Assembly: GCA_964551375.1 (NCBI GenBank)
Contig: CAZKBG010000001.1
Coordinates: 30,001-62,000, forward strand
DNA: 32,000 nucleotides
From: an uncultured archaeon
GTDB lineage: Archaea > Iainarchaeota > Iainarchaeia > Iainarchaeales > JAAZKV01
Reading direction: 5' to 3'
The notes under the pieces were generated by a model. That model was not told where the DNA came from. It ran no database searches and worked only from the letters and a program-made list of their open reading frames with translations. Positions 2,649 through 24,280 of this stretch are shown here, one piece after another (the stretch's first letter is position 1; each line of letters starts with the position of its first letter). The translations under genes and the position numbers were made by a program.

Positions 2649-2963
2649 TTATTTTTTTATGTGATAAGTAGTCTTAATGCACTTGTCTTTTGCTTTTACT
2701 ATTATTGGCTCTGTGATTCCTTTTTGCTTGAGAGGATTGTATTCAGTCCTCAATTGGAGGATGGATAGTTGTTTTCCTATTGTGAAAACGCTTTTTCCTG
2801 TGACGTCGCTGAGTTCGCAAAGGGTTAAAGGCTTTTTTTCAAGTGCTTGGACGATTTGTTTTTGAAGCGGGGAGAGTTTTGAAAGGATTTTTTTATCGCA
2901 GGCAGAAACAGGTGAGGGGAAGGATTCGTTTTTCGTAATGTTGTGCTCCTCATTTTTAGGCAT
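2649..2963 (-). CDS. Small winged-helix (HTH) transcriptional regulator-like protein
   Basis: 104 aa. The segment LSPLQKQIVQALEKKPLTLCELSDVTGKSVFTIGKQLSILQ has the helix-turn-helix/wing pattern of ArsR/MarR-like wHTH proteins. It lies divergent to the giant surface-protein gene. Confidence 0.55.
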   Translation of the reverse strand: MPKNEEHNITKNESFPSPVSACDKKILSKLSPLQKQIVQALEKKPLTLCELSDVTGKSVFTIGKQLSILQLRTEYNPLKQKGITEPIIVKAKDKCIKTTYHIKK

Positions 2964-3214
2964 TAGTTAAACCCCTAATATTTAACTTTCTAAGATTAAT
3001 TAGTTATACAACTGTTTTTAATCATTTCTGAAAGTGAATTGCAAAAATTTTCATAGAACTCTCAAAAGTTAATTTGTAAAATCAATCCTTGACTAAAAGA
3101 GAACGTATATATTGAAGTTCTGTGGTAAGTTATGCAAATCACTTGAGTTAACTCTTTTTTTGCCTTACATAGAGAGCGTGGCGGTGGTTTAAGTGTATAC
3201 AGAGAGGTGTATCG

Positions 3215-6200
3215 ATGGGCGATTGTAAAGGAGAGTGTGGATGTGACAGGTCTGACATTTTGGGGGCAAGGAAATTTTTAATTCCGTTTGCCATAGTTTT
3301 AGTATTATTAATGGCCGTGACGGCGTTTGCGGTGCCTTTAGAGGCGCTAGGCGCATCTGTTGGGCCGGACAACGTTACAGTAACAATAAGTCCAGGAGTA
3401 ACTAATTGTGATACTCTTGGAAAGGAATTTACGGTAACGGTAAAAAATGAATTAACAAATGTTCATGGAGTGTATGAAGTAAGAGTGTATAGAAGCGATA
3501 CGGGAATTGACGCAAATAGTTTTGTTTGCGGCTCTGCGCCAGTTGGATGGACTCTTTCTGATTATGCTGGGGGAGACCCTAATTTAGAAGATTATGGTTA
3601 TTGTGAATACAAAACCAGAATGACAGGCGCGTATGTAATAACGCCTGGAACAAGCCTTGACTTTAAGTTCAAAGCAACAATGATTAAAAGCGATGCTTGT
3701 GAAAGTGTTTTCACTATTTCTTCGCTTGACAACGGACAGCCAATAGGAGACCACGAGTGGGACAACCCTCAAGTACTCATTGACTGCACTCAACCAGTTG
3801 TTGACAAGAAACTAGGAACTCCATACTTCAATTTGGATGGAGACGATTACATAACTCAAAACACAATGATAGCAGTAACATCAAGCGACATGGAAAAATG
3901 CGACCTTGGCGTAAACAACTGCACAGTATATTACACAGTTAACGGAGTAGAGCAGAAGCCAATGGTAAAAGAAGGCGAGGAAGCTCTTGCATTTGAGTTC
4001 AACTTTGAACAGGACTCAAGACACGATGTTAACTTAGTATGTGTTGATAACGCAGGAAACTCGACAACAATAAAAGAAACTGATTTTGTTGAAACAGTTC
4101 CTCCAGAAACAACAAAAACATACGGAAAGCCGTTCTACGAAGTTGACGGAACATTGCACTATATTACAAGCGCAACTCCAATAGATTTCAACGCGGTTGA
4201 TCCAAGCCCTCACCCAAGCGGAGTGAAGGATTTGAATTATAGAGTTACTCTAATTGATGACAGCGTATGCTTCAGAGGATGCACGGATGTTGAAGGAAAA
4301 GGGGATTGGATAACTACAACTCCTAATACTACAATCACCATCGCTGAACAATCATGCCATCTAATAGAGTTCCAGTCAGTTGATAATCTTGGAAACTTGG
4401 AAAACCTAAAACACCAGTGCGTGTTTGTTGATAACACAGATCCATTATTAACAAAAGAAATTGGAACACCAAGCATAATCGGGGCAGATGTTAATTGGGT
4501 AAGACAAGACACACCAATAACACTGACTTGCGAAGACCAGCAGCCACACCCAAGCGGGGATGTAACAATAAGCTGGCAGATAACGCTTGACGGAAACTTA
4601 GGCGAAGTACAGAGCGTTAATGACAATACAACAACAATTTACTTCCCAGAAGACTCAGTACATGTGCTTGACGCATGGTGCACTGATGCAGTAGGAAATG
4701 AATCAGCACACGATGTGCAGCTATTCAAAGTAGATTCAACTCCTCCAGAACTAACAAAAACAATGCTAGGGACAGAAGATGTTGATTACGTTGGAGACTG
4801 CCCTCCAGAAAGCCCTGAAGATATCTGCTTTGTAGCTGATAATGGAAGAGGCGGAGTGAACGCAATAGTAAGCGACCCTGATCCAACAGGATACGGATGC
4901 AACGTTGACAGCTCAACATGTGCATACGAAGTTTGGTGGACAGCTACAGTTCAACAATGTAAAGATGCTGAAGGACAAGGTTATAACGATGTAAATGGCG
5001 AATGCCTGCTAGATGTTGGAAGATTCGATGAAAACGGAACAAATATCCTATTCAGAAAAGATTCCACACATAGACTTGTTATAAACTGTAAAGATGCTTT
5101 AGGAAACGAAATGACAACGGATGTTGAAGTATTCAAAGTAGATTCAACACCTCCAGTAACAACAAAAACATACGGTACTCCAACAGTAGTAAAGGGAGAT
5201 TACCGCTGGATAACAACAGACACAAACATTACTCTAGAAGCAACTGACAACAAAGTAGGAGTGGATGAAACATTCTACCTTGTTACACAAATGCAATTGT
5301 CAGAAGAAGAGTGCTCACAAGTGTGCTCTGATAGAGAAGTATTCAGTGTTTTAGATGTGGAAGTTCCAGAATTCATGGAATACGAAGGACCATTCACAAT
5401 CGCTGAAGATTCTTGCCACAAAATACAATACTACTCAGTAGACAAATTAGGAAATACAGAGAGAGTAAAAGAACAGTGCGTATTTGTTGATACTGCGGCT
5501 CCAGAAGTTGTAAAAACTATTGGGGATCCAAAAGTGATTGACGGCGAACTAACTTTCATCTCACAACAAACTCCAATAACTCTAACCTGCACGGATGTAA
5601 AACCACACCCAGTTGGGGACGTGAATTTAATGTACAGGTACAGAGTAAGCACTGACTGCCAGGATTGGAATGCATGGTCATCATGGATTGATCCACCGGT
5701 AGGACAGGGAGAAAAGACAATATACTTCGAAGAAGATTCCTGCCACCAGCTTGAATACACATGCTCGGACGGATTAGGAAACGCTACTGAAGTAGAATCA
5801 GAAATAGATATTGTAGACACACAAGCTCCAGAAATTGACATAAACGTAGTTGGACCACAAATCGAACAGGCATGCCCTGGCGATATGGACGGCAACTGCT
5901 TGTACATAGATGGAGTGACAAAATTAGTGGTAACTGCAGTTGATCCGCAGCCTCATCCAGTGAACGGCGTAACCTGTGATTGGGATTACAAAGTAAGCGA
6001 AGGAGAGAAGACAGGACAAGGTGCAGAAGGAGTAACACCACCATTTGAAATCAACTTCCCAGAACAGTCAATGCACTCACTAAAAGTAGTGTGCAGAGAT
6101 GCTTTAGGAAATGACAATGGATTAGTAACAGAATACATTGTAGACAAAACTCCTCCAGTAATAAAGAAGAAATATTTGGGACCATACTTCTCAGACAATA

Positions 6201-7498
6201 ATGGAGTAGAATGGATTAATTCCCTAACAGAAATAGAAATAACAGCGGAGGATCCATTACCGCACCCATCAGGACTGAAATCACTTGAATACAGAATCAG
6301 TCTTGTAGCGGACAACTACTGCACAAGCCAGGAAATATGCCAGGACGCAGTTGGAAGCGGAGAATGGAATGATGTGGAAGGAAACGTAAATGTAGGTGAA
6401 CAGTCCTGCCACTTAATAGAAATAAAGGCAACAGACAATGTTGAAAAGACAGCAACACACAAACAATGTGTGTATGTTGATAACACACCTCCAACACCAG
6501 TAAAGACAGTTGGAACACCTCACACAAAGTGGACACCAGGACAAAACGGACAGCCAGGAAGTATCTTCTATCCATGGATAAATGATGCATGCTGGGCTGA
6601 TGTGAACGGAATAGACTGCTGGAAAGTTCCACTATACACGCCAATATCACTACAGTGCAATGATCCACTACCTCATCCAGTGAACAATTCAAAAGTATGT
6701 TTCAACGTGGAGTGGGATGCAACAGACATAACACAGAAGTATTGTAGAGGCATGGAAGGAGAGATAGGAGAAGATGGTTACTGCTGCCTATCAAACACAA
6801 CAGATAACTTCTACTTCGGAGAAGAAACAGAGCATAACCTGAAGTTCTACTGCGCAGATGCATTAGGAAACAAGGGGCTTGTTGACGATGAGAAGTTCAA
6901 GGTAGAAGGAACACCATTTGAGATAGAATTAAACAAGAAATGGAATCTAATCTCAGTTCCATTCGTATTGCTAGACAGCAATATAACAACAGTTCTAGAG
7001 AGCGACAGCGAAAACATTGCGGGAGTATGGACATACGACGCTATCACAAACCAGTGGTACGTATATAACCCATCAAGCCCAAGCACAAGCAACTTAGATA
7101 CAATGGAGCCGGGAAACGGTTACTGGGTAGCTGCATATAATCCAAGTGTATTGGAAATAGCAGGTAGTTTATTCAGCCCAATAACAACACCTCCTGATAA
7201 AGCTCTCAAAGCTGGGTGGAACCTAATAGGTTACTATGGCACAGACGGACAGTCAGTATATGACGGCCCAGATCACGCCGGAAGACCAGCAAGCTGCGTG
7301 CTATACTCGCTAGGAGAAACTCTACTAGATAAAGGATGGACAGCGCTACTCGGATACTGGGAGCCAAACAATCCAAATGCATGGGAAGAATATAGCTACC
7401 CAAGCAGAATGGATCCAGGCGCAGGATACTGGGTTAACGCAACAGAAGACAGCACATATAGCTATTCAACAGTTTGCGGCGGATTCTTTCTTAATTAA
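3215..7498 (+). CDS. Giant secreted surface protein with nine tandem Ig-like adhesin-type domains and a conserved C-terminal WNLI/GYWV module
   Basis: Uninterrupted 1427-aa ORF with an N-terminal hydrophobic signal/anchor (FLIPFAIVLVLLMAVTAFAVP). The domain-boundary motif V-D-x-T-x-P-x-x-x-K-x-x-G-x-P recurs nine times. Each is preceded by an H-x-L/I-x-Y/F-x-S/C-x-D-x-L/A-G-N-x-E pattern and a D-P-x-P-H-P-S/V-G motif. A TTG at 3260 would give a more canonical signal peptide (MGARKFLIPF...), so the start is uncertain. Confidence 0.9.
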   Translation: MGDCKGECGCDRSDILGARKFLIPFAIVLVLLMAVTAFAVPLEALGASVGPDNVTVTISPGVTNCDTLGKEFTVTVKNELTNVHGVYEVRVYRSDTGIDANSFVCGSAPVGWTLSDYAGGDPNLEDYGYCEYKTRMTGAYVITPGTSLDFKFKATMIKSDACESVFTISSLDNGQPIGDHEWDNPQVLIDCTQPVVDKKLGTPYFNLDGDDYITQNTMIAVTSSDMEKCDLGVNNCTVYYTVNGVEQKPMVKEGEEALAFEFNFEQDSRHDVNLVCVDNAGNSTTIKETDFVETVPPETTKTYGKPFYEVDGTLHYITSATPIDFNAVDPSPHPSGVKDLNYRVTLIDDSVCFRGCTDVEGKGDWITTTPNTTITIAEQSCHLIEFQSVDNLGNLENLKHQCVFVDNTDPLLTKEIGTPSIIGADVNWVRQDTPITLTCEDQQPHPSGDVTISWQITLDGNLGEVQSVNDNTTTIYFPEDSVHVLDAWCTDAVGNESAHDVQLFKVDSTPPELTKTMLGTEDVDYVGDCPPESPEDICFVADNGRGGVNAIVSDPDPTGYGCNVDSSTCAYEVWWTATVQQCKDAEGQGYNDVNGECLLDVGRFDENGTNILFRKDSTHRLVINCKDALGNEMTTDVEVFKVDSTPPVTTKTYGTPTVVKGDYRWITTDTNITLEATDNKVGVDETFYLVTQMQLSEEECSQVCSDREVFSVLDVEVPEFMEYEGPFTIAEDSCHKIQYYSVDKLGNTERVKEQCVFVDTAAPEVVKTIGDPKVIDGELTFISQQTPITLTCTDVKPHPVGDVNLMYRYRVSTDCQDWNAWSSWIDPPVGQGEKTIYFEEDSCHQLEYTCSDGLGNATEVESEIDIVDTQAPEIDINVVGPQIEQACPGDMDGNCLYIDGVTKLVVTAVDPQPHPVNGVTCDWDYKVSEGEKTGQGAEGVTPPFEINFPEQSMHSLKVVCRDALGNDNGLVTEYIVDKTPPVIKKKYLGPYFSDNNGVEWINSLTEIEITAEDPLPHPSGLKSLEYRISLVADNYCTSQEICQDAVGSGEWNDVEGNVNVGEQSCHLIEIKATDNVEKTATHKQCVYVDNTPPTPVKTVGTPHTKWTPGQNGQPGSIFYPWINDACWADVNGIDCWKVPLYTPISLQCNDPLPHPVNNSKVCFNVEWDATDITQKYCRGMEGEIGEDGYCCLSNTTDNFYFGEETEHNLKFYCADALGNKGLVDDEKFKVEGTPFEIELNKKWNLISVPFVLLDSNITTVLESDSENIAGVWTYDAITNQWYVYNPSSPSTSNLDTMEPGNGYWVAAYNPSVLEIAGSLFSPITTPPDKALKAGWNLIGYYGTDGQSVYDGPDHAGRPASCVLYSLGETLLDKGWTALLGYWEPNNPNAWEEYSYPSRMDPGAGYWVNATEDSTYSYSTVCGGFFLN
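3782..6904 (+). repeat. Array of ~9 divergent Ig-like protein-domain repeats (100-135 aa each) inside the 1427-aa CDS
   Basis: Boundaries by eye at about aa 189, 292, 405, 506, 642, 758, 867, 976 and 1088 (IDCTQP, VETVPP, VDNTDP, VDSTPP x2, VDTAAP, VDTQAP, VDKTPP, VDNTPP). Confidence 0.75.
6476..7498 (+). repeat. Copy A of the shared ~340-aa C-terminal module (paralogous to 12005-13012)
   Basis: From VDNTPPTPVKTVGTPHTKWTPGQNGQPGSIFYPWINDACW to the C-terminus. It aligns colinearly with the C-terminus of the next protein, with many identical blocks (NGQPGSIFYPWIN, VNGIDCWKV, SKVCFNVEWDA, EHNLKFYC, NKKWNLIS, EPGNGYWVAA, LKAGWNLIGYYGT, RMDPGAGYW). Confidence 0.9.
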
Positions 7499-7525
7499 GA
7501 ATCCGTCCTTTAATTTTTTTAGGGG

Positions 7526-10500
7526 ATGAAGAACTTGAATGAAAATTTCAACAAGAAAGTGAACCTAAAAAAATTAAGAACAGTAATGATTATTGGAATG
7601 GTATTGGCAATCTCAATGATTGCCATTGCCTGTCCAACAACAACACTAACAACAACTCCAATAAATCCTAATTCTTACGGGTGGTTTAACCCAATAGTAA
7701 AAGTTTCTATTAATCTTTCACCAGGAAGCGTTCCTGGAATTATAAAATACACTTATGATTTAAACAAAAAAAGAACTCCTTACCCTGATTTGAATTGGCT
7801 GGGAGACACTAACTATCTTCACGGAATAAAAACAATCAGATACGCTGCTGTGGGAAAAGACGGAAGCAAAGAACCTGAAAAAACTTACACTGTGCAGGTT
7901 GATAGCATTGCCCCTGAAACTTTAGGATTCTCGCTTGACACCACAAATGGAGTAATTTACAATCCAGGCGCAAGAGCATTTGATATTAATTATGGGATAG
8001 TAAAAGTAAGGATAATATCAGGGGACAATACCTCTGGACTAAGCACCTGTCAATTAAATTTTGATTATAACGCGCTCAACCCGACAGCAGGGTGGGATGC
8101 TCCAACTCCAAACGTTGATTTAACTTATGGACACTTGCACTATTATGACACTAACGGGATAAAAGTAATTGTAATTAAATGCACTGATAAGGGACTTAAT
8201 ACTAGCACGCCAGCACTATCTCCATTTACATTTAGAGTAATTAATCCATATGATCGGACTCCTCCAATTTCAACACTAATAATAGATACTAACTCAACAA
8301 GCACGGAAGAATGTTATAATGACAAAGTGCTTGTTTCAATAATAGCTGAAGACCCGCAAAGCGGAGTGGCAGCAATAAAATACTGTATTGATACAAATGA
8401 CACTTGCGTTCCAAATATTAATTACACAACCCAGTTGCTTTTTACTGATGGAAAGAAATACTTGCGGTACAGGGCAATAAACCTGCACGGCGTGGAAGAA
8501 AACATAAACAGCGAAATGATTAACATTGATAAGAATGGATGCGGAAGAGAATGCGAACCCCACACAATAGGGTACTGGAAACAACCATGTAAAGGACACT
8601 ACGAACATGAAACACAAGCATCAATGCTTGGATACCTTGCGGAAATACAAGCGACAAGCGATTACTTTGACTTTATTTCAAGCTTTAATGGAATGTGCGA
8701 TATATTAGACCCTGATGAGCCCGCAACTATGAAGCAAAGGGCAAAACAACAATTTCTTGCACTTTGGCTGAACGTGGTGACAGACAAACTTTTCACTTAC
8801 ACTACAATAAGCCTCCCCGCATACACTGATGCGAACACAGTGGGCGGAGCAATAACAGTTATACAAAATAATATTAGCTCAAATTCCGAAAAAGCAAAAA
8901 CAATTGCTGACAAGTTAAACAATGGAATTGGAATTGTGGATTGTCAGCCCTCAAAACCGCTAAAGATAATTGCACAAAAAATTGTTTGCGAAAATGAAGC
9001 TGACTTGCCAAACTGGGGACTTGGTGGACCAAATATTACTGCCCTAACAGCGATGAGCTTTGTTGCAACCCACCCAGGATGCAAATTTGATTCTAACTGG
9101 TACTTCCAATGGGCAAAATCAGGCACCTCAAATCCTGGAAGCAACACAGGAGAAGCAGCACCAAACACAGGGTGGAAAACATTTGGACCAACCAATGCTC
9201 AGGGAGAGGTAAATATACTAATATCTGATTTTAACAAAACAAACAAAATTTGGGTAAGAGAAGTATTCAAACAAGGATACGTTTCGTTTACTTATGACAC
9301 AAACGGAAACTCAAATAATGTAAGCGCGGAAATTTACTGCTACAAGGATGTATTTAACTATGATAACTATGACAGTATTGGGGCTCCTCAATTAGGAAGG
9401 ACTTATTACTGTGTGGCATGGAATGCTATAAAAAAATATGAATGCACAAGCGACGCAAATTGCAGTGATGGAGTATATTGTAACGGAGCGGAGAAATGCA
9501 ATCTCCAAAATCACAAATGTGAAAAAGGAATACTTATTGATTGCAATTCATTAAACGATCAGTGCAATAGCGGAGTGTGCGATGAGAATGTTGATAAGTG
9601 CATAGCTAATCCTGTGCCAAATGGAACTACTTGTAATGATAATTTATTCTGCAATACTGGTGAAGTGTGCAATAATGGAAAATGTGGAAATGGGGGAGTA
9701 AGGGATTGCAGTGATTACAATATACTTGGAATATCAACTTGTCTTTGGGACCCTGATGGTTTAGATTATACTTGGGATTTTAGAAGTTCCTTTACAAGCA
9801 TTTGCAATGAAGAACTTGACAAGTGCGCTGTTGGCGATTACAACATAACACACATTGTTGATGAAAAGTGCGCTGAATGCCTTGGAGATTCTGACTGCCC
9901 TCAGCCGGAAAATGCATGCATGGAAAACAGATGCCAAAACTACAAATGCGCACTAACTCCAAAACCATCAACTACTTCGTGCAATAACGGGGCTTATTGT
10001 GACGGGGCTGATAGGTGTGATGGAAACGGAATGTGCCTTGCAACTGGGTCTAGCGTCGACTGCAGCGGGCTTGATGATCAGTGCAATAGCGGAGTGTGCG
10101 ATGAGAATGTTGATAAGTGCATAGCTAATCCTGTGCCAAATGGAACTACTTGTAATGATAATTTGTTTTGCAATGTTGGTGAAGTGTGCGATAATGGAAA
10201 ATGTGAAAGCGGACAGGCAAGAGATTGTAGCGACAATAATATACTTGGGATATCTTCATGTTTTTGGAATCCTGATGGTTTAGATTATACTTGGGATTTT
10301 AGAAATCCTTTCACAAGTATTTGTGATGAAGGGAATGATAAGTGTACAACTGGGGACTTAAACATTAATCACACAATTGATCCAAAATGCACTAAATGCA
10401 TGACGGACTCGGACTGCCCAGCGCTTGAAAATTCATGCATGGAAAATAGATGCATAGAATACAAATGCGTTGAAACACCAAAACCATCTCAAACAACATG

Positions 10501-13012
10501 TGACAATGGACTCTATTGTGATGGCGCTGATAGGTGTGATGGGAATGGAATGTGCTTTGCGACTGGGTCTAGCGTGGATTGCAGTGGACTTGATGATCAG
10601 TGCAATAGCGGAGTGTGCGATGAAAACCAAAATTCATGTGTAAAAACTCCTGCAAGAAACGGAGCAGCGTGTGATGATAACTTATTTTGTAATACTGGTG
10701 AAGTGTGCAGCAATGGAATTTGTGGAAACGGAAATACAAAAGACTGCAGCGAAAATAATATCCTTGGAGTATCATCCTGCTTGTGGATACCTGATGGTTT
10801 AGATTATACTTGGGATTTTAGAAATCCTTTCACAAGTATTTGTGATGAAGGGAATGATAAATGTACAACAGGGGACTTAAACATCAATCACACAATTGAT
10901 GAAAAATGTGCTGAGTGCATGATAGATGCTGATTGCCCAACGCTTGAAAACTCCTGTGCGGAGAATAAATGCTTAAACTATAAATGTGTTGAAACTCCAA
11001 GGCCGACAACAACAGTTTGTGATAATGGAACTTATTGTGATGGCGCTGATAGGTGTGATGGAAATGGGGCGTGTAAATCTACAGGTACTCCAGTAGATTG
11101 TAGTTCACTAAATAATCAATGCAATAGTGGAGTGTGTGATGAGAATATTGAAGGGTGCGTAGCACAGCCTGTGCCAAATGGAACTACTTGTAATGATGAT
11201 TTGTTTTGCAATACTGGTGAAATATGCCTTAATGGAACGTGTGGCGGTGGGCAGGCGAGAGATTGTTCAGGATTTAACTTAAACCCAATTGGACAGTGCG
11301 ATTACTTCCCTGATGGATATGCTTGGACTTATGACTACTTCCTTGGATTCTTAAGCCAGTGCAGTGAAGAACAAGACAAATGCACTGATGGCAACATAAC
11401 AATAACTTCTTACTGCAGCACAGAGAATTGCGACGCAGAATGTGAAACGGATCTTGATTGCAGCGCCCACTTTGATGGAAACGTGTGCAATTATAGGGGA
11501 CTTTGCGGAGCAGAGCCAAGCTGCGCATGCAGTTACCAAAAAGAACTTTGCCCTGCACCAGGAACAATAGTTGATGGGTACTGCTACTGGGGAAATGGAG
11601 CATGTACAAGCACTGGATGCGATTTGAACAAAACAAGAATGGATTGCTACAAGCGATGCGACCCAATACTTGGGCCTGTGGAACTTCCAATTATAAAAAC
11701 AACCAAATTTGTTGGACAGCCAAAATCCCATTGCAATTATTTAGGAGATTTAAACGAAGCAGAAGAATGTTTATTTGTAACTACTGCTACTGAATTTATG
11801 CTTGATTCAAACGATTCAAATGCAAGCACATATTACAGACAGAGATGGAAAGAGGATTATAACAGTACCTGGGGAAATTGGAGCGAGTGGAATGAATACA
11901 CTCAGCCGTTTAATTACCTTGAAGATTCAATACATGAACTTGAATATTATTCAATAAATGAAATTTGCGAAATCGAAGAAAAACACAATTATGAAATTGA
12001 CATAGTGGACACAAAAGCGCCAAGCGCAAAGAAAACAGTGGAGAACCCAAAAGTAAAATGGACTCCGTCAAAGAATGGACAACCTGGTAGCATATTCTAT
12101 CCGTGGATAAATAATGCGTGTTGGAATGATGTGAACGGAATAGACTGTTGGAAAGTAACTCTTGATACGCCAATATCATTTGACTGCAATGATTTACAAC
12201 CTCATCCATCAAACAACTCAAAAGTATGTTTCAACGTGGAGTGGGATGCTAATGACATCACGCCAAAATACTGTACTCAAATGCAAGGGACAATAGGGCA
12301 GGACGGTTACTGCTGTGTTCCTGATGATGCTAGAAAATTCAATTTCCTTGAAGAAACAGAACACAACTTAAAATTCTATTGTAAAGATGTGCTTGGAAAC
12401 AAAAGCCCAATTGATGATGAGAAATTCAAAGTAGGGGGAACAGAGTTTGAAATCCAATTGAATAAAAAATGGAACCTAATCTCAATACCATTTGCGCTCC
12501 TTGATAGCAATGTGGCTGAAGTAATTGATGAAATTGACCAAAATATTGAATCAGTGTGGACTTATGATGCATTTACTGATCAATGGTATGTGTATAGACC
12601 GCTAAGCCCAAGCACAAGCAACTTAGAAACAATAGAACCAGGAAATGGCTACTGGGTAGCGGCGCTCAACCCAGCAAAATTAGTTCTTGGAGGAAGCTTG
12701 TTTAATCCAATAGCAACCCCTCCTCAAAAATCGCTCAAAGCTGGATGGAACTTAATAGGGTATTATGGCACTGAAGGGCAGATGGGTTATTACGGACCAA
12801 TTGGCTCAGGAAAAACAGCAGGATGCGAACTATACTCGCTTGGAAACACAATTCTTGACAAAGGATGGACTTCATTATTCACATTTTGGGCGCTAAGAAC
12901 CCCAAGTCAGTGGCTAGATTTGAGCTATTACAACAGAATGGATCCAGGCGCAGGATACTGGATATCTGTGCCTAGTGATGATGTTTTAAGCTACTCTTCA
13001 ACATGCAGTTAG
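7526..13012 (+). CDS. Giant secreted cysteine-rich surface protein (Ig-like N-terminal domains, 4 tandem Cys-rich modules, shared C-terminal WNLI/GYWV module)
   Basis: Uninterrupted 1828-aa ORF with an N-terminal hydrophobic segment (VMIIGMVLAISMIAIA). The N-terminal third has VDSIAPET / DRTPPIST domain boundaries. The central part is four 173-aa Cys-rich modules. The C-terminal 335 aa are paralogous to the preceding gene. It starts only 27 nt after the previous stop. Confidence 0.9.
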   Translation: MKNLNENFNKKVNLKKLRTVMIIGMVLAISMIAIACPTTTLTTTPINPNSYGWFNPIVKVSINLSPGSVPGIIKYTYDLNKKRTPYPDLNWLGDTNYLHGIKTIRYAAVGKDGSKEPEKTYTVQVDSIAPETLGFSLDTTNGVIYNPGARAFDINYGIVKVRIISGDNTSGLSTCQLNFDYNALNPTAGWDAPTPNVDLTYGHLHYYDTNGIKVIVIKCTDKGLNTSTPALSPFTFRVINPYDRTPPISTLIIDTNSTSTEECYNDKVLVSIIAEDPQSGVAAIKYCIDTNDTCVPNINYTTQLLFTDGKKYLRYRAINLHGVEENINSEMINIDKNGCGRECEPHTIGYWKQPCKGHYEHETQASMLGYLAEIQATSDYFDFISSFNGMCDILDPDEPATMKQRAKQQFLALWLNVVTDKLFTYTTISLPAYTDANTVGGAITVIQNNISSNSEKAKTIADKLNNGIGIVDCQPSKPLKIIAQKIVCENEADLPNWGLGGPNITALTAMSFVATHPGCKFDSNWYFQWAKSGTSNPGSNTGEAAPNTGWKTFGPTNAQGEVNILISDFNKTNKIWVREVFKQGYVSFTYDTNGNSNNVSAEIYCYKDVFNYDNYDSIGAPQLGRTYYCVAWNAIKKYECTSDANCSDGVYCNGAEKCNLQNHKCEKGILIDCNSLNDQCNSGVCDENVDKCIANPVPNGTTCNDNLFCNTGEVCNNGKCGNGGVRDCSDYNILGISTCLWDPDGLDYTWDFRSSFTSICNEELDKCAVGDYNITHIVDEKCAECLGDSDCPQPENACMENRCQNYKCALTPKPSTTSCNNGAYCDGADRCDGNGMCLATGSSVDCSGLDDQCNSGVCDENVDKCIANPVPNGTTCNDNLFCNVGEVCDNGKCESGQARDCSDNNILGISSCFWNPDGLDYTWDFRNPFTSICDEGNDKCTTGDLNINHTIDPKCTKCMTDSDCPALENSCMENRCIEYKCVETPKPSQTTCDNGLYCDGADRCDGNGMCFATGSSVDCSGLDDQCNSGVCDENQNSCVKTPARNGAACDDNLFCNTGEVCSNGICGNGNTKDCSENNILGVSSCLWIPDGLDYTWDFRNPFTSICDEGNDKCTTGDLNINHTIDEKCAECMIDADCPTLENSCAENKCLNYKCVETPRPTTTVCDNGTYCDGADRCDGNGACKSTGTPVDCSSLNNQCNSGVCDENIEGCVAQPVPNGTTCNDDLFCNTGEICLNGTCGGGQARDCSGFNLNPIGQCDYFPDGYAWTYDYFLGFLSQCSEEQDKCTDGNITITSYCSTENCDAECETDLDCSAHFDGNVCNYRGLCGAEPSCACSYQKELCPAPGTIVDGYCYWGNGACTSTGCDLNKTRMDCYKRCDPILGPVELPIIKTTKFVGQPKSHCNYLGDLNEAEECLFVTTATEFMLDSNDSNASTYYRQRWKEDYNSTWGNWSEWNEYTQPFNYLEDSIHELEYYSINEICEIEEKHNYEIDIVDTKAPSAKKTVENPKVKWTPSKNGQPGSIFYPWINNACWNDVNGIDCWKVTLDTPISFDCNDLQPHPSNNSKVCFNVEWDANDITPKYCTQMQGTIGQDGYCCVPDDARKFNFLEETEHNLKFYCKDVLGNKSPIDDEKFKVGGTEFEIQLNKKWNLISIPFALLDSNVAEVIDEIDQNIESVWTYDAFTDQWYVYRPLSPSTSNLETIEPGNGYWVAALNPAKLVLGGSLFNPIATPPQKSLKAGWNLIGYYGTEGQMGYYGPIGSGKTAGCELYSLGNTILDKGWTSLFTFWALRTPSQWLDLSYYNRMDPGAGYWISVPSDDVLSYSSTCS
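9440..11640 (+). repeat. Tandem in-frame 519-bp (173-aa) cysteine-rich module, about 4 copies (last one divergent)
   Basis: The landmark CAGTGCAATAGCGGAGTGTGCGATGA (QCNSGVCDE) starts at 9560, 10079 and 10598. A variant (CAATGCAATAGTGG...) starts at 11117. The period is exactly 519 nt. Each unit has fixed Cys spacing (..NGxYCDGADRCDGNGxC..QCNSGVCDE..C..NGTTCNDNLFCNTGEVC..G.C..DCS..). Confidence 0.95.
12005..13012 (+). repeat. Copy B of the shared ~340-aa C-terminal module (paralogous to 6476-7498)
   Basis: From VDTKAPSAKKTVENPKVKWTPSKNGQPGSIFYPWINNACW to the C-terminus. At DNA level it shares exact stretches with copy A, for example tcaaaagtatgtttcaacgtggagtgggatgc at 6689-6720 and 12218-12249. 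Confidence 0.9.
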
Positions 13013-13102
13013 AAGATACGCTGGAAGATAAGTTGTTTTTGCCAATCAAGAAAGGTTTTTATGCACTTTGCAAAGGAATTATGATAGATAGTTAATTTGT
13101 TA

Positions 13103-13112
13103 ACTATAAAAG
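13103..13112 (+). promoter_or_regulatory. TATA-like box upstream of the 13138 start
   Basis: actataaaag is centred about 31 nt upstream of ATG 13138. This favours that ATG over the TTG at 13129 used by the ORF track. Confidence 0.45.
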
Positions 13113-13137
13113 AGGAGTATTTGGGGGATTGATTTTC

Positions 13138-14196
13138 ATGGGGTCAGCAAAGTATTTTTCAATGCTAATTTTTTCTATTTTTATTTTAGGAGTTGCTCTT
13201 GCGGCTCCAGGGATACCACACCAGTTTTATGGATTTGTGACAATCAACGGAGCGCCGGCAAATGGAGCGTTAATAGTTGCAAAAATAAATAACGTTGAAG
13301 TTTCAAGAACCCTGAGCTCAAACGGAAATTACGGGTACAATCCAAATATTTTCTATGTTCCAGACCCAAACAGCAACAACGCTGGAAAAAGAATTGACTT
13401 TTATTTAAGCGGAACGCTTGTAGCAAACAAATACTTTGAAAGTGGAACAAGCACAAAACTTGATTTTAATTTAGGAATAGCTCCATTTTGCGGAGACACT
13501 AGCTGCAACGCAGGAGAAACATGCTCAACATGCGCAACTGATTGCGGAGTATGCCCTTCAACAGGTGGCGGAGGGGGAGGCGGCGGTGGCGGAGGAGCTC
13601 CAGTAGCCCAAAGCATTAATGTTCAAGTAACAGGAAACTGCCTTGGAAAACCAATAGTATTGAAAGCAACAGCAGGAACAACAGCACTTGGCTCAGCAAC
13701 AGTAAGCGTAAAACACAACAACAATACTTCCCAAACAACAACAGATGCAAATGGCGGAATAACATTCACATTCAATGAACTTGGAAAATACGAGTTCACA
13801 GTAACAAAGAACTCCTATAGCCCTGCAACAAAACAAGTTGATGTATTAAACTGCACAGGGGAAACAACAAACACAGGGACTGGAAGCGGCGCAGGTGCTG
13901 ATTTATGCTCAAACAAAAACTGCAACGACTTAAACCCATGCACTGATGATTCATGCGCGCTAGGCGTATGCAACTATGCATTCAAATCAGATGGAACAAC
14001 ATGCGGAACAGAACTAACATGCCAGAAAGGAGAATGCGTTGCAAAAATTGTGGAACCAGTTAACACAGCTACTGGGGCAGGGGCTGCAACAGGATTATTC
14101 GCACTTGGAACAGATACTGCTATGCCAATAGTTCTTGTAATAGTAATAATTGCCATATTTGCAATACTATTGCTATTAAGCAGAAGAAAAAAGTGA
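13138..14196 (+). CDS. Cys-rich, tail-anchored surface protein with Gly11 linker and carboxypeptidase-regulatory-like beta-sandwich domain
   Basis: Signal peptide (FSMLIFSIFILGVALAAPG). Cys knot CGDTSCNAGETCSTCATDCGVC. Eleven consecutive Gly at 13564-13596. The segment VQVTGNCLGKPIVLKATAG...TTDANGGITFTFNELGKYEFTVTKNSYSP fits the CarboxypepD_reg-like pattern. A second Cys-rich block (NPCTDDSCALGVCNYAFKSDGTTCGTELTCQKGEC) resembles the modules of the 1828-aa protein. A C-terminal TM helix is followed by RRKK. Confidence 0.85.
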   Translation: MGSAKYFSMLIFSIFILGVALAAPGIPHQFYGFVTINGAPANGALIVAKINNVEVSRTLSSNGNYGYNPNIFYVPDPNSNNAGKRIDFYLSGTLVANKYFESGTSTKLDFNLGIAPFCGDTSCNAGETCSTCATDCGVCPSTGGGGGGGGGGGAPVAQSINVQVTGNCLGKPIVLKATAGTTALGSATVSVKHNNNTSQTTTDANGGITFTFNELGKYEFTVTKNSYSPATKQVDVLNCTGETTNTGTGSGAGADLCSNKNCNDLNPCTDDSCALGVCNYAFKSDGTTCGTELTCQKGECVAKIVEPVNTATGAGAATGLFALGTDTAMPIVLVIVIIAIFAILLLLSRRKK

Positions 14197-14224
14197 AAAT
14201 TAGTTAAATAAAAAAATGATTTGT

Positions 14225-14246
14225 TTGGCGGGCAAGAGCCTGCCAA
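14225..14246. terminator. Bidirectional terminator-like hairpin between convergent genes
   Basis: ttggcgggc (14225-14233), loop aaga, then gcctgccaa (14238-14246) form a 9-bp stem with one G-T pair. It is flanked by T-runs on both strands (aaaaaaa at 14211-14217 upstream, tttt downstream). It sits between the 14196 stop (+) and the 14270 stop (-). Confidence 0.5.
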
Positions 14247-14269
14247 AAATATTATTTTCCAAAGTAAAA

Positions 14270-14554
14270 TTACTTCTTCTTTTTTTTGTTCCCAAAAATC
14301 TTATCCCACTGACTTTGTTTAACCCCATGAAATCCTACTGTAGTGCCTATATTTGATTCAGAAATCCTTGGGGTAATATATTTTAATTTTGGCTGGAGAA
14401 CTTGCGCAGCCTTTGTATACGCTTGATGAGAATCAGCAATCCTTCTCTGGCTTCCGGTTTCAACAATCATCGGACCGTGGCGCGTGCCGGTTTCCTTATT
14501 ATGAAAAGTCATTACAAGTTTTCTTTTCGGACCTTTAGGTTTCATAAAAATCAT
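14270..14554 (-). CDS. Small basic protein with Lys-rich tail, probably co-transcribed with the pilin-signal giant protein
   Basis: 94 aa, rich in K/R, ending in WDKIFGNKKKKK. Its ATG lies 2 nt downstream of the TAA stop of the 904-aa gene on the same strand. No recognisable family. Confidence 0.5.
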   Translation of the reverse strand: MIFMKPKGPKRKLVMTFHNKETGTRHGPMIVETGSQRRIADSHQAYTKAAQVLQPKLKYITPRISESNIGTTVGFHGVKQSQWDKIFGNKKKKK

Positions 14555-14556
14555 CT

Positions 14557-17271
14557 TTAAACAAGTGGAACTATTTGAAGCCCTGCGATTTGAGAATACC
14601 CGCCTATTGAAGGAACATCAATCACAACAGTGTCGCTTCCTCCAACAGAAATATTAGAAAATACACTATACTGCTCTCCTTCCATCCATCTTGCAAGAGT
14701 GGCTGAGTGAGTTCCGGCATTTGTTTTAGTTCCTTGGCTTATGCCTCCAACAGAAAGAGTGTATTGGCAGGAAGTAGCATCCCAAGGGCTGCAATAAAGC
14801 ACAAAGTTGTAATCATTTGCGCTAAGCCCGGTTAGGGTAATGCTTGAAGCCGCGCCTGAGCGATAAATATAGCCGTTAAACATTGCATCATTTAGATTTG
14901 TGCTTCCACCCCACCCTCCGCCAAATCCTCCAAGCGTCATTGAAACCCCTGTAACATTTCCATTAGCATCAAGAACATTTGGAGAGCTCATGCTTGATGA
15001 AGTCAAGTTCCAATAGTAGGTGTTTCCATCATTATACATTCCGCTTCCAGAATATGATGAGGGGCTGTAATCAAAATTAATCGCTCGTTTTCTTCTTGCA
15101 TCCTGCGATGGGGTTTGCGCGGTTAAATTATTTGAAGTAATTATCTGCAGTCCTGACATGTTTTGCCCTATTGTAATTTTAATAGGGTCATTATAATCCG
15201 ACACATGAATGTTGTTAATTGTAGTGTACTGCTCTCCCGCCATCCACCTTGACAAAAACTTTGCATGCCCATTTCCGGCAGATTTTGAGCCGTAATTCAC
15301 AAGGTCAGTTGCAATTGTAAAGTTGTTCACAGTTGCGTCATCAGGAACGCCGTACAATACTAAATTGTAATCCCCTGCGGGAAGTCCAATTATTTTGACT
15401 AAACTTCCGTTGTAAATATATCCGTTAAACATTGAGTCATTCACTCCGCTTGTCCCTCCCCAGTTTCCAGCCATGTTTGAAATTACCGCAATCCCTTCTG
15501 TGGAATTATTATTCCCGTCCTTAATTGTGGATGATGTGGTGGTTCCGTTTGCAAGAGGATTCCATTTGTAAGTATTCCCATCGTTGAATTTTCCATTTCC
15601 AGTGTAAGAACCGTCCCCTCCGCAGTCAAAGTGAAGAGACTGCTTTAGATATGGATTTTGTTCAGAAGGAAGAGCTGTGACAAGGGAAGATCCGTTTACT
15701 GGAATAATCTGCCATCCTGAAATATTTGAGCTTACATTCACCTTAATTGGATCGTTATAATCCGAAACATGAACATTGCTGAATGTGTGATATTGTTCCC
15801 CCTCAACCCAGCTCGCAAGATTTCTATTGCTCCCTGAAGAAGTGCCTGCAGTTTTTGCACCATAGCTTGCAAGATCAGTTGAAACAGTGTGAGTATCAAC
15901 TCCAGTAGGCGCAACATAAAGAACAAGATTGTAATCCCCTGCAGGAAGACCGATTATTTTTGCGAGATTTCCTGTATAGCTGTAATTTTCAAACATTGAG
16001 TCATTAACTCCATTAGAAAGTCCCCAACCTCCAGTAAAGTTTGATGTAAAAGAAACTCCTGGGACTGCATTGTCATTTGCATCCTTTATTGAAGGCGAGT
16101 ATAAGGTAGTGTTACCAACAGTATTCCATTTATATGATTGGCCGTTGTTGAATTTTCCGCTCCCTGTGTAAAGACCACTCCCTGCAAAGTCAAAGAATAT
16201 TCCATAAGAAATTGGATTAGCAAGAACAGTAATTGTAATCAAAAAGTCGCTTGTGTTTGGGTTGCCAGCAGTGTCAATGCATCTGATATAAACATTATTA
16301 CTTCCAGTCGCAAGCCCGCTAATAGTTGCCGAGTGGGAAGTCACTGAATCAGTAAAACTATTGGTCATGCTTGCATATGCGACTCCTGTAGAAGTTGAAT
16401 ATCTGCAAGCCGCATTTTCATCCGTGGTGATTGTGAGTCCGTAAGTTGTAGTTCCAAACGCAAGCGCGCTGGGGTTTGAGCCTGATATAACCGGAGGGGT
16501 GGCATCAGCGCCAACTGTAATAGTTACAAGCGTGTCGTCTGAGATAGAGCTGTTTGAAACACTTTGACATTTAATATAAATATTATTGGCTCCAGTTACT
16601 AACGAACCCACAGTTGCTGAGTGGGTTAATTCACTTCCTGAAAAACTATTAGCTTGGCTGGAAAAAGCAACTCCACTAGAAGAATCATACTTACAATTAG
16701 CATTAACATCAGTGTTAATATCAAGAGCATAACTTGCTGTTCCATAAGCAAGGGTGGCTGGGTTTGATGCGCTGATTATTGGAGGCGCAGCAAGAGCAAC
16801 AGCTCCGCGTGCAATGCAATCAATGTAAAGTGTTCCATAATCCACTGTTTTTTCTAAACCAGCATCAGAAACATAATTTACTTTAACAGTGTAAGTCTTT
16901 TGATTCGGGGAGTCACAGGCGGGAAGGTTGCTCAATGAAAAGCTTTTCACATCATTTTGAGCAAATGAAAGACTTGAACCGATTGGATAATTTGTGTCAT
17001 TAATTATAAACCCGGTAATTCTAATTGTTTCCCCAGTGTTATTTTGGAGAACAAATAATCCATTAGCATCAGTTCCAATTGCAGCGTCATTTACTCCTAC
17101 AATTTGGGACATTGCATTTATTTTGCTTGATTTGGATGCTCCCCCCGAAGAGCTTTGGGCAGTTGTATCGACAAGAAGCCCGACAACAACAAGCGCAATT
17201 ACAATTACAATTGCAATAATTACAAGATATTCGATTGTCCCTTGGGCGCGGTTGTTTTTATTTTCAGCCAT
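14557..17271 (-). CDS. Large surface protein with archaeal class III (type IV prepilin-like) signal peptide and repeated beta-sandwich / lectin-like domains
   Basis: 904-aa ORF. The N-terminus is MAENKNNRAQGTIEYLVIIAIVIVIALVVVGLLV: a charged n-region, an RA|QGTIE site with Gln at +1 and Glu at +5, then a ~22-residue hydrophobic helix. Two ~93-aa repeats and three ~175-185-aa repeats follow. There is no C-terminal anchor. Confidence 0.9.
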   Translation of the reverse strand: MAENKNNRAQGTIEYLVIIAIVIVIALVVVGLLVDTTAQSSSGGASKSSKINAMSQIVGVNDAAIGTDANGLFVLQNNTGETIRITGFIINDTNYPIGSSLSFAQNDVKSFSLSNLPACDSPNQKTYTVKVNYVSDAGLEKTVDYGTLYIDCIARGAVALAAPPIISASNPATLAYGTASYALDINTDVNANCKYDSSSGVAFSSQANSFSGSELTHSATVGSLVTGANNIYIKCQSVSNSSISDDTLVTITVGADATPPVISGSNPSALAFGTTTYGLTITTDENAACRYSTSTGVAYASMTNSFTDSVTSHSATISGLATGSNNVYIRCIDTAGNPNTSDFLITITVLANPISYGIFFDFAGSGLYTGSGKFNNGQSYKWNTVGNTTLYSPSIKDANDNAVPGVSFTSNFTGGWGLSNGVNDSMFENYSYTGNLAKIIGLPAGDYNLVLYVAPTGVDTHTVSTDLASYGAKTAGTSSGSNRNLASWVEGEQYHTFSNVHVSDYNDPIKVNVSSNISGWQIIPVNGSSLVTALPSEQNPYLKQSLHFDCGGDGSYTGNGKFNDGNTYKWNPLANGTTTSSTIKDGNNNSTEGIAVISNMAGNWGGTSGVNDSMFNGYIYNGSLVKIIGLPAGDYNLVLYGVPDDATVNNFTIATDLVNYGSKSAGNGHAKFLSRWMAGEQYTTINNIHVSDYNDPIKITIGQNMSGLQIITSNNLTAQTPSQDARRKRAINFDYSPSSYSGSGMYNDGNTYYWNLTSSSMSSPNVLDANGNVTGVSMTLGGFGGGWGGSTNLNDAMFNGYIYRSGAASSITLTGLSANDYNFVLYCSPWDATSCQYTLSVGGISQGTKTNAGTHSATLARWMEGEQYSVFSNISVGGSDTVVIDVPSIGGYSQIAGLQIVPLV
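14560..16209 (-). repeat. Three tandem ~175-185-aa domain repeats (aa 355-904), lectin/CBM-like by pattern
   Basis: Shared blocks across three copies: FD..G.G.YTG.GKFN(D/N)G.(S/T)YKWN, GGWG...GVNDSMF.(N/G)Y.Y.G, IIGLPAGDYNLVLY, W..GEQY....N(V/I)HVSDYNDPIK, G(W/L)QI(I/V). Confidence 0.85.
16222..16788 (-). repeat. Two tandem ~93-aa domain repeats (aa 162-350) in the 904-aa protein
   Basis: PPIISASNPATLAYGTASYALDINTDVNANCKYDSSSGVAFSSQANSFSG..THSATVGSLVTGANNIYIKCQ aligns with PPVISGSNPSALAFGTTTYGLTITTDENAACRYSTSTGVAYASMTNSFTD..SHSATISGLATGSNNVYIRCIDTAGN. By eye this pattern recurs in many metagenomic Ig/Fn3-like surface proteins. Confidence 0.85.
17167..17271 (-). other. Class III signal peptide / pilin-like N-terminal helix (predicted prepilin-peptidase site RA|QGTIEY)
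   Basis: aa 1-35 of the 904-aa protein. This is the pattern known for archaeal pilins/archaellins and DUF361-type pilin-like proteins (Q at +1, acidic residue at +5, long hydrophobic stretch). Confidence 0.75.
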
Positions 17272-24248: not shown

Positions 24249-24280
24249 GCCATTAAATTGTGATAAATATTGGTGGTAAA

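What the first reader, a model, noticed from the sequence alone, without database searches (positions are those of the whole stretch)
3215..17271. 14-kb cell-surface island of four modular giant or Cys-rich proteins, a candidate host-attachment system of an episymbiotic archaeon
Four adjacent genes (1427, 1828, ~352 and 904 aa) total about 13.5 kb, which is more than 40% of the window. All carry secretion signals and consist almost entirely of repeated extracellular modules: Ig-like adhesin repeats, disulfide-rich modules, a CarboxypepD_reg-like domain and lectin-like triplicated domains. The genes are linked by shared parts. Proteins 1 and 2 share a C-terminal module and the Ig-like repeat type. 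Proteins 2 and 3 share the Cys motif (..C..D.C....C.......GTTC...L.C..GEC). The fourth gene converges on the others and uses a pilin-type signal. A wHTH regulator and a polysaccharide-synthase pair sit immediately upstream. In a small AT-rich archaeal genome, this much investment in surface proteins suggests a cell-cell or host-adhesion apparatus. None of the modules has a function I can assign.
Basis: partly seen in the sequence, partly recalled or inferred. Interest (0 to 1): 0.75.

Follow-up and report, generated by a model that had tools for sequence, protein, structure and literature searches.

The report
Tethered giant surface proteins, DPANN and CPR
Three of the four genes form a previously undescribed cassette, two secreted giant proteins followed by a small membrane-anchored partner, that recurs across many tiny archaea (DPANN) and, with a different anchor, in tiny bacteria (CPR), so it is probably a general way these cells tether long proteins to their surface.

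Summary
The four ORFs and their modular make-up are real. They are not one unit.

P1 (1427 aa), P2 (1828 aa) and P3 (352 aa), with a divergent ArsR-type regulator, form a conserved cassette. The roughly 190-aa C-terminal domain shared by P1 and P2 closes giant proteins in 78 loci of DPANN species genomes. In 64 of 86 testable cases a P3-like gene starts within 600 bp downstream. That gene encodes a signal peptide, a conserved N-terminal beta-sandwich and a C-terminal membrane helix.

In CPR bacteria the same C-terminal domain ends otherwise unrelated giants. There it is followed by a P3-N-domain-plus-dockerin protein, then a membrane-anchored protein that is cohesin-like in two of five cases.

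I infer that P3 tethers the anchorless giants to the membrane, an arrangement like SlaA/SlaB. P1 is the canonical family member and P2 is an accessory variant. P4 is a separate pilin-signal protein found in none of the related loci.

Neither docking domain matches Pfam or any solved structure specifically. I found no description in the literature searched. Binding, lattice formation and host attachment remain untested.

The parts
2649..2963 (-). ArsR-family HTH regulator, divergent from P1
   Evidence: Pfam HTH_5, E 1.4e-6. Homologs at 44-62% identity lie divergently upstream of the giant in L004, L009, L012, L017 and L036.
3215..7498 (+). P1, the canonical giant (1427 aa). It is acidic, has an N-terminal hydrophobic signal and no membrane anchor.
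   Evidence: It aligns end to end with giants of L003 (45%), L026 (42%), L008, L021, L004, L067 and L052.
3791..6922 (+). About 10 tandem OmpL47-type Ig-like repeats of P1 (aa 193-1236)
   Evidence: Self-BLAST of fragments. NCBIfam NF047446, 112 bits against a cut-off of 40.
6923..7495 (+). C-terminal domain of P1 (aa 1237-1427), an internally duplicated WNLIS...GYW beta domain and the proposed docking domain
   Evidence: It is the most conserved part of the family. AF2 model pLDDT is 84. CPR giants share it at 32-37% identity.
7478..7507 (+). Hairpin with an 11-bp stem and T-rich tail across the P1 stop codon; a possible attenuator before P2
   Evidence: The overall count of such sites is not above the shuffled control.
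7526..13012 (+). P2, the accessory giant (1828 aa, 6.8% Cys)
   Evidence: Its first roughly 1400 aa find relatives in only 0-7 loci, best in L013.
8870..9421 (+). P2 domain at aa 449-632, shared with four unrelated multidomain proteins (P0002-P0005)
   Evidence: 43-52% identity. No Pfam match.
9422..11647 (+). Four Cys-rich repeats of about 173 aa in P2 (aa 633-1374)
   Evidence: 48-80% identity for the first three repeats, lower for the fourth. No Pfam match.
11885..13009 (+). C-terminal module of P2 (aa 1454-1828): one OmpL47-type repeat plus the docking domain (12443-13009)
   Evidence: 62% protein identity and 71% DNA identity to the P1 module.
13138..14196 (+). P3, a small tail-anchored partner (352 aa)
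   Evidence: P3-like genes follow the giant in 64 of 86 cases.
13213..13485 (+). P3 N-domain (aa 26-116), a beta-sandwich and the proposed receptor for the giants' C-terminal domain
   Evidence: AF2 pLDDT 92-97. Conserved motif PG.PHQFYG.VT.NG. The family also occurs with dockerin in CPR.
13618..13854 (+). P3 second beta-sandwich, CarboxypepD_reg-like
   Evidence: PF13620, 31.9 bits against a 32.3 cut-off. AF2 strands at pLDDT 50-67.
14122..14184 (+). P3 C-terminal transmembrane helix followed by an RRKK tail
   Evidence: AF2 helix at aa 329-349. The same architecture is seen in nearly all 66 P3-like proteins.
14224..14247 (+). GC-rich hairpin with a T-rich tail just after the P3 stop codon; a terminator-like end of the cassette
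14557..17271 (-). P4 (904 aa), not part of the conserved cassette. It has a class III signal and a pilin-like N-domain (aa 1-155), 2 Ig-like repeats (aa 161-352) and 3 repeats of a 187-aa module (aa 358-904).
   Evidence: One full-length homolog exists (P0009, 73% identity). No hit in any of the 78 loci.

Best explanation
ArsR, P1, P2 and P3 form a conserved surface-tethering cassette.

Proposed mechanism:
- P1 and P2 are secreted rods built from Ig-like domains and probably stabilised by disulfides. Neither has an anchor of its own.
- Their shared C-terminal domain of about 190 aa docks onto the N-terminal beta-sandwich of P3.
- P3 sits in the membrane through its C-terminal helix. The giants are therefore held on the cell as a fibrillar or S-layer-like coat.
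- P1 is the canonical, widely conserved subunit. P2 uses the same dock but displays different outward modules, including the Cys-rich repeats.
- P4 is an independent protein with a pilin-type signal.

Shown: the domain architectures, the synteny, the distribution across lineages and the alternative anchors.

Inferred: the physical binding of the C-terminal domain to the P3 N-domain, and the nature of the resulting structure.
For: 1. The C-terminal module defines a large family: 335 representatives at E<1e-30, mostly 1400-2000 aa, with the module at the extreme C-terminus.
2. It occurs in 78 loci of MAGs labelled Iainarchaeum, Micr-, Aenigmat-, Woese-, Pace-, Nano-, Nanohal- and Altiarchaeota.
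3. A P3 N-domain gene starts within 600 bp downstream of 64 of 86 C-terminal domains. Seven of the exceptions are non-terminal giants of tandem arrays in which one P3-like gene follows the last giant, as in the window.
4. Nearly all of the P3-like proteins recovered have a signal peptide, the N-domain, a variable middle and a C-terminal TM helix with a basic tail. The giants end without any anchor.
5. Domain-fusion logic from CPR bacteria. Giants built from unrelated domains (Big_5, MBG_2, beta-helix) end in the same C-terminal domain (32-37% identity, E 1e-20 to 1e-29). They are followed by a protein with the P3 N-domain plus Dockerin_1, then by a protein with a signal peptide and a C-terminal TM helix. 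That third protein has weak Cohesin hits in 2 of 5 cases.
6. The C-terminal domain is the only part shared by P1, P2 and the CPR giants.
7. A partial Mantel test gives r(C-domain, P3N | adjacent module) = 0.23, p about 5e-4. The converse gives 0.12, p = 0.08. This is weak support.
8. The AF2 models are confident for both proposed partners.
Against: - There is no direct test of binding.
- Fold searches gave only generic beta-sandwich matches.
- Gene adjacency could reflect co-expression or assembly rather than docking.
- The cohesin assignment of the third CPR gene rests on weak precomputed hits. My own Pfam scan of two other examples (L079, L081) found none.
- The Mantel correlations are low.
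- The taxon labels of MAGs may include mis-binned contigs.
- No expression data are available.
Confidence: 0.55

Rival explanations
1. True two-component S-layer. P1 forms the regular outer lattice of the cell and P3 is its stalk, as SlaA and SlaB do in Sulfolobales. This is a specific version of the tethering model.
For: - P1 and its partner match SlaA and SlaB in size, gene order and anchor logic. SlaA is about 1400 aa from my own knowledge, and the anchor-less-plus-TM-stalk layout is described.
- P1 is acidic (223 D+E against 85 K+R) and has 13 N-glycosylation sequons.
- Full-length orthologs occur in many lineages.
- SlaB (8qox_B) ranks 4th among PDB matches of the P3 model.
- One paper states that no DPANN S-layer protein has been determined.
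Against: - The SlaB match has TM scores of only 0.14-0.18.
- The P3 model has no long helix outside the signal peptide and the TM segment, so no coiled-coil stalk.
- P1 has 3.5% Cys, whereas S-layer proteins are described as poor in sulfur amino acids.
- Tandem arrays of up to three different giants share a single anchor, which suits interchangeable fibrils better than one lattice former.
- The S-layer candidates proposed for Micrarchaeum, Nanoarchaeum equitans and Nanobdella are different proteins of about 100 kDa; the Micrarchaeum one carries PF05123.
Confidence: 0.25
2. One reading: the four genes together are a dedicated host-attachment apparatus of an episymbiont.
For: - All four products are extracellular and modular.
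- OmpL47-type repeats are named after a Leptospira surface protein.
- P2 carries unique Cys-rich modules, and P4 carries a triplicated module on a pilin-like stem.
- The cassette is found in DPANN and CPR, the two radiations of ultra-small cells, which I know as mostly episymbiotic.
Against: - P4 is not syntenic with the others in any related locus.
- P1 is conserved end to end across phylum labels rather than diversified.
- The cassette is also present in MAGs labelled Altiarchaeota, a lineage I know as free-living.
- No ligand-binding domain was identified.
Confidence: 0.2
3. P3 is not an anchor for the giants. It is instead an assembly, secretion or maturation factor, or an unrelated co-expressed membrane protein, and the giants are released or attached by other means.
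For: Adjacency alone does not prove binding. The P3 N-domain has a common transthyretin/CarboxypepD_reg-like fold.
Against: - The P3 N-domain is always joined to an anchoring device: a TM helix in DPANN, or a dockerin next to a TM protein (cohesin-like in two cases) in CPR.
- One P3-like gene serves arrays of giants.
- The giants' most conserved part is the extreme C-terminal domain.
Confidence: 0.15

Closest known systems
SlaA/SlaB two-component S-layer of Sulfolobales
   Same: A large secreted multi-Ig outer protein without an anchor is encoded just upstream of a small protein with beta-sandwich domains and a C-terminal TM helix. The sizes are similar.
   Different: There is no sequence relation, and fold similarity is only generic. 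P3 lacks a coiled-coil stalk. The giants are Cys-rich and can occur as tandem variants. Lattice formation is unknown.
Cohesin-dockerin anchoring of surface scaffolds (cellulosome-type systems)
   Same: Surface proteins are tethered by a modular protein-protein dock. The CPR version of this cassette uses a dockerin adaptor next to a membrane protein that is cohesin-like in two cases.
   Different: The window's P3 has no dockerin. The proposed C-terminal-domain/P3-N-domain pair is a different, uncharacterised pair of beta domains. No carbohydrate-active enzymes are involved.
Leptospira OmpL47 and other fibrillar adhesins built of tandem Ig-like repeats
   Same: P1 and P2 contain OmpL47-type repeats (NF047446). 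Their architecture is rod-like.
   Different: The OmpL47 equivalog model is not met (111 bits against 250). The organism is an archaeon, the anchoring differs, and there is a conserved C-terminal domain absent from OmpL47.
Proposed S-layer proteins of DPANN archaea (Micr_00292, which carries PF05123, with NEQ300 and MJ1_0160)
   Same: They are secreted, glycosylation-prone, Ig-rich proteins of DPANN cells.
   Different: PF05123 is not found in P1-P4. Those proteins are about 100 kDa (about 1000 aa for MJ1_0160), and Micr_00292 is poor in sulfur amino acids.
Archaeal type IV pilin-like proteins with class III signal peptides (relevant to P4)
   Same: P4 has PF04021 above its cut-off. Its N-domain is shared with a family of 500-650-aa GLUG-motif proteins.
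   Different: P4 has a C-terminal extension of about 750 aa with a triplicated module known from only one other protein. No pilus assembly genes lie in the window.

Membership tests
SlaA/SlaB S-layer (Sulfolobales) | A large anchor-less outer protein and a small C-terminally TM-anchored protein encoded side by side | tested here: met
   P1 and P2 end without a TM helix. P3 has a helix at aa 329-349 followed by RRKK. The gene order is conserved.
SlaA/SlaB S-layer (Sulfolobales) | Sequence or specific fold homology to SlaA or SlaB | tested here: not met
   No PDB sequence hits. Foldseek ranks SlaB 8qox_B 4th, but at TM 0.18/0.14.
SlaA/SlaB S-layer (Sulfolobales) | Coiled-coil stalk in the anchor protein | tested here: not met
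   The AF2 model of P3 shows helices only in the signal peptide, a 4-residue turn and the TM segment.
SlaA/SlaB S-layer (Sulfolobales) | Formation of a regular 2D lattice; very high abundance | not testable with these tools
   This needs cryo-ET or freeze-etch imaging, and proteomics.
Archaeal S_layer_N-type S-layer proteins (PF05123) | N-terminal S_layer_N domain | tested here: not met
   No PF05123 hit at E<=0.1 in P1-P4.
OmpL47-type beta-barrel domain proteins (NCBIfam NF047446) | Domain model score above the curated cut-off of 40 bits | tested here: met
   P1 scores 112 bits and P2 49.2 bits.
Leptospira OmpL47 (NCBIfam NF047441 equivalog) | Full-length equivalog score of at least 250 bits | tested here: not met
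   P1 scores 111 bits and P2 36 bits.
Cohesin-dockerin systems | Dockerin (PF00404) on the adaptor and cohesin (PF00963) on the anchor | tested here: not met
   Window P3 has neither domain. In the CPR counterparts the dockerin is met (45.7 bits, L081). Cohesin is seen only as weak precomputed hits in L084 and L085.
Class III signal peptide / type IV pilin-like proteins (P4) | PF04021 at the N-terminus above its cut-off | tested here: met
   24.1 bits against 23.7, at aa 7-29.
Class III signal peptide / type IV pilin-like proteins (P4) | Neighbouring prepilin peptidase or assembly ATPase/platform genes | tested here: not met
   No such Pfam families among the window ORFs scanned.
CarboxypepD_reg domain (PF13620) in P3 | Score above the gathering threshold of 32.3 bits | tested here: inconclusive
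   31.9 bits, E 1.7e-7, at aa 185-240. AF2 gives a beta-sandwich at low confidence.
Lectin / carbohydrate-binding modules (P4 triplicated domain) | Recognisable lectin or CBM family or fold | tested here: inconclusive
   No Pfam hit at E<=10 and no PDB profile hit.
New family proposed here: giant with WNLIS-GYW C-terminal domain plus P3-N-domain anchor | C-terminal domain at the extreme C-terminus of a giant, followed within 600 bp by a gene with the P3 N-domain joined to an anchoring device | tested here: met
   Window: P2 ends at 13012 and P3 starts at 13138. The pattern holds in 64 of 86 DPANN cases and in 4 of 4 complete CPR contexts.

The most novel reading that the evidence does not exclude
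The WNLIS-GYW C-terminal domain and the P3 N-domain are a new protein-protein docking pair, functionally like cohesin-dockerin. The pair is shared, probably through transfer between the domains of life, by DPANN archaea and CPR bacteria. It builds the outer fibrillar coat of these ultra-small cells, and that coat carries interchangeable giant 'heads' such as P2 that make contact with hosts.
Probability: 0.3. Interest if true: 0.85.

Novelty: new variant of a known kind. Interest (0 to 1): 0.68.

Why it matters
How DPANN and CPR cells build their envelopes and hold on to hosts is largely unknown. A 2023 preprint on Nanobdella states that no DPANN S-layer protein has been determined. A 2021 protein-family survey found no DPANN-wide specific families and few unknown DPANN families shared with bacteria.

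A cassette with two recognisable domains gives a concrete and searchable target for several approaches:
- HMM surveys of genomes;
- complex prediction and binding assays;
- antibodies, and cryo-ET of enrichment cultures.

The cassette is present across many DPANN lineages and, with a dockerin adaptor in place of the membrane helix, in CPR bacteria. This also raises the question of gene exchange between the two radiations.

Tried and rejected
- Word-indexed homology search with whole P2 found only 5 hits and missed even P1. The exhaustive profile search was needed.
- Exact look-ups of the window's proteins for their contig found nothing. The source genome is not among the species representatives scanned.
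- The first genome scan used patterns that were too specific and found nothing.
- Foldseek against PDB and BFVD gave only generic tandem Ig/FN3 matches.
- Links considered and rejected:
  - the Micrarchaeum harzensis S-layer protein, which is PF05123-type;
  - the Altiarchaeum hamus protein, which has an S-layer-like N-terminus, is 97 kDa and was modelled with a propeller-like fold;
  - the essential dockerin protein SEML1_0315 of Southlakia, a 927-aa protein in a different gene context.
- My guess that ORF 19154-20707 is a murein hydrolase found no support.
- P1 and P2 C-terminal modules are 71% identical at the DNA level, so there is no sign of recent gene conversion.
Full report
**Observation.**
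- P1, 3215-7498 (+), 1427 aa
- P2, 7526-13012 (+), 1828 aa
- P3, 13138-14196 (+), 352 aa from the ATG that follows a GGAG-type motif
- P4, 14557-17271 (-), 904 aa

All four sequences exist in public data as singletons at 90% identity, on one NCBI contig of 946,135 bp.

Fragment self-comparison confirms the modular build:
- P1 has about ten repeats of roughly 110 aa (aa 190-1240).
- P2 has four Cys-rich repeats of about 173 aa (aa 633-1374). The first three are 48-80% identical to one another.
- P4 has two repeats of 96 aa and three of 187 aa.

P1 and P2 share their last 374 aa at 62% identity. Pfam recognises almost nothing. The exceptions are the class III signal peptide of P4, just above its cut-off, and a CarboxypepD_reg hit in P3, just below its cut-off. 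NCBIfam identifies the P1 and P2 repeats as OmpL47-type domains. Upstream lie a GT2, a UDP-glucose dehydrogenase-like gene and an ArsR-type regulator. The Cys motif said to link P2 and P3 is only a loose similarity.

**The C-terminal module defines a large family.** A profile of the P1/P2 C-terminal module was scored against 1.84 billion representative proteins. It gave 335 hits at E<1e-30. Nearly all are 1000-2700 aa (median about 1540 aa), and nearly all carry the module at the extreme C-terminus. Conservation is highest in the last roughly 190 aa, which hold motifs such as KKWNLISVPF, PGWGYWV, GWNLIGYYG and MDPGAGYW, along with invariant cysteines further upstream in the module.

A scan of one genome per species with these motifs returned 78 loci. 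Their labels include Iainarchaeum, Micrarchaeota, Aenigmatarchaeota, Woesearchaeota, Pacearchaeota, Nanoarchaeota, Nanohaloarchaeota and Altiarchaeota. A few labels may reflect mis-binning (Methanosarcinales, Omnitrophota). The best matches are Iainarchaeum and Micrarchaeota MAGs at 58-59% identity.

P1 aligns end to end (aa 19-1424) with giants of L003 (45%), L026 (42%), L008, L021, L004, L067 and L052. It is therefore the canonical family member. The first roughly 1400 aa of P2 find relatives in only a handful of loci.

**Synteny.** I searched all window ORFs against the 78 loci.
- The N-terminal domain of P3 (aa 26-145) is encoded within 600 bp downstream of 64 of the 86 C-terminal domains that have enough downstream sequence.
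- Seven of the 22 exceptions are non-terminal giants of tandem arrays. In those arrays (L002, L006, L008, L010, L030, and L011 with three giants) a single P3-like gene follows the last giant, as in the window. Three further cases have the P3-like gene slightly beyond 600 bp.
- An ArsR homolog lies divergently upstream of the giant in the five closest loci.
- No module of P4, and neither polysaccharide gene, is syntenic.

The P3-like proteins (222-560 aa) nearly all have an N-terminal hydrophobic signal, the conserved N-domain (PG.PHQFYG.VT.NG.PAPDG...), a variable and often Cys- or Gly-rich middle, and a C-terminal TM helix followed by a basic tail. P1 and P2 have no anchor.

**A bacterial counterpart.** A profile of the P3 N-domain found 150 proteins. 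Many are about 200 aa, carry a type I dockerin, and come from CPR bacteria: Nealsonbacteria, Paceibacterota, Parcubacteria and other Patescibacteria.

I examined five gene contexts. One lies in a 675,639-bp Nealsonbacteria record (CP179890.1), flanked by Mur-ligase, FtsW/RodA-family and Glyco_transf_28-family genes. The order is always the same:
1. A giant of 1307-2210 aa. It is built from other domains (Big_5, Big_12, MBG_2, beta-helix), yet its last roughly 180 aa are the same WNLIS-GYW domain (32-37% identity to P1, E 1e-20 to 1e-29). This gene is cut off in the fifth context, L085.
2. A small protein with the P3 N-domain plus a dockerin.
3. A protein of 233-278 aa with a signal peptide and a C-terminal TM helix with a basic tail. 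Weak Cohesin hits were seen in two of the five.

So the P3 N-domain is always joined to a membrane-anchoring device. In DPANN that is a TM helix. In CPR it is a dockerin next to a TM protein that is cohesin-like in two cases. The domain always follows a giant ending in the WNLIS-GYW domain.

**Structure.**
- The AF2 model of the P1 C-terminal module is confident (mean pLDDT 84, pTM 0.70) and almost all-beta. By my reading of the strand pattern, the last 190 aa form an internally duplicated beta domain.
- The P3 model has a very confident N-terminal beta-sandwich (pLDDT 92-97), a second low-confidence sandwich, disordered linkers and the TM helix. It has no coiled coil.
- Foldseek against PDB and BFVD gives only generic Ig/FN3 arrays or transthyretin-like sandwiches. 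SlaB of Sulfolobus ranks fourth for P3 but with low TM scores.
- No Pfam, NCBIfam or PDB sequence family covers the C-terminal domain, the P3 N-domain, the P2 Cys-rich repeat or the P4 triplicated module.

**Interpretation.** The best-supported reading is that P3 tethers the giants. The giants are Sec-exported, and their conserved C-terminal domain docks on the P3 N-domain. The P3 helix holds the complex in the membrane.

The evidence is comparative. It rests on conserved adjacency across many lineages and both prokaryotic domains of life, one anchor gene per array of giants, complementary presence and absence of anchors, the swap between anchor types, and a weak but significant excess covariation between the C-terminal domain and the P3 N-domain (partial Mantel r = 0.23, p about 5e-4).

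Binding itself was not tested. Whether the product is a regular S-layer or a coat of fibrils is open.
- For a lattice: the SlaA/SlaB-like logic, the acidity of P1 and its sequons, and its wide conservation.
- Against a lattice: the Cys content, the interchangeable tandem giants, and the missing stalk.

Two hairpins, one across the P1 stop codon and one after P3, would fit graded expression and termination of the cassette. Such sites are no more frequent than in shuffled sequence.

**P4.** P4 has a class III signal and a roughly 110-aa N-domain. It shares these with a family of 500-650-aa GLUG-motif proteins. It also has two Ig-like repeats that are common in DPANN and CPR surface proteins, and a triplicated 187-aa module known only from one 73%-identical homolog on a 4-kb contig. 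It is a pilin-like surface protein of unknown binding specificity and is not linked to the cassette elsewhere.

**Literature.** The candidate S-layer proteins proposed for Micrarchaeum, Nanoarchaeum and Nanobdella are different proteins, and so is the Altiarchaeum hamus protein. A DPANN protein-family survey reported no DPANN-wide specific families and few unknown DPANN families shared with bacteria. My searches for dockerin or cohesin in CPR bacteria, and for DPANN surface systems, found no description of this cassette. This is absence within the held library, not proof of novelty.

**Verdict.** That unit is a conserved, cross-domain tethering cassette rather than an organism-specific attachment island. 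It is a new variant of a known kind (an anchored giant surface protein, or a two-component coat) built on two uncharacterised domains.

Noticed in passing
window 7478-7507 and 14224-14247 (+): There are two terminator-like hairpins. One has an 11-bp stem spanning the P1 stop codon just before P2. The other is GC-rich with a 10-bp stem and lies right after P3. The overall count of such sites is not above the shuffled control.
   Followed up: partly
window 22349-22753 (+) and 24260-24676 (+): These two small ORFs (134 and 138 aa) are paralogs: 38% identity, E 1e-16. Neither has a significant Pfam match.
   Followed up: partly
window 19154-20707 (-): This 517-aa protein has an N-terminal signal-like segment and no Pfam, NCBIfam or PDB match. 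My impression of NlpC/P60-like and transglycosylase-like motifs was not supported.
   Followed up: yes
window 14270-14554 (-): A 94-aa, very basic ORF lies directly downstream of P4. The contig of the only P4 homolog has an 89-aa gene in the same position, so the pair may be conserved.
   Followed up: no
window 26299-26928 (-) and 29417-29806 (-): Both ORFs have lipobox-like N-termini (..VLFGC and ..FIFGC), suggesting lipoproteins. Several other small, highly basic ORFs without Pfam matches lie in 23.8-25.6 kb.
   Followed up: no
L031:1046-2725 and L011:1462-11463: L031 encodes a 559-aa P3-like protein with three tandem P3 N-domains. L011 has three giants in tandem followed by one P3-like gene.
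   Followed up: partly
window 8870-9421 (P2 aa 449-632): This domain is 43-52% identical to a segment of four otherwise unrelated multidomain proteins. Those proteins carry VWA, DUF4215, Laminin_G_3 or SpaA domains (P0002-P0005). The domain itself has no Pfam family.
   Followed up: partly
window 3001-17000: The island has a higher G+C content (0.39-0.42) than its flanks (0.34-0.39). It also has a strong positive AT skew over P1, P2 and P3.
   Followed up: no
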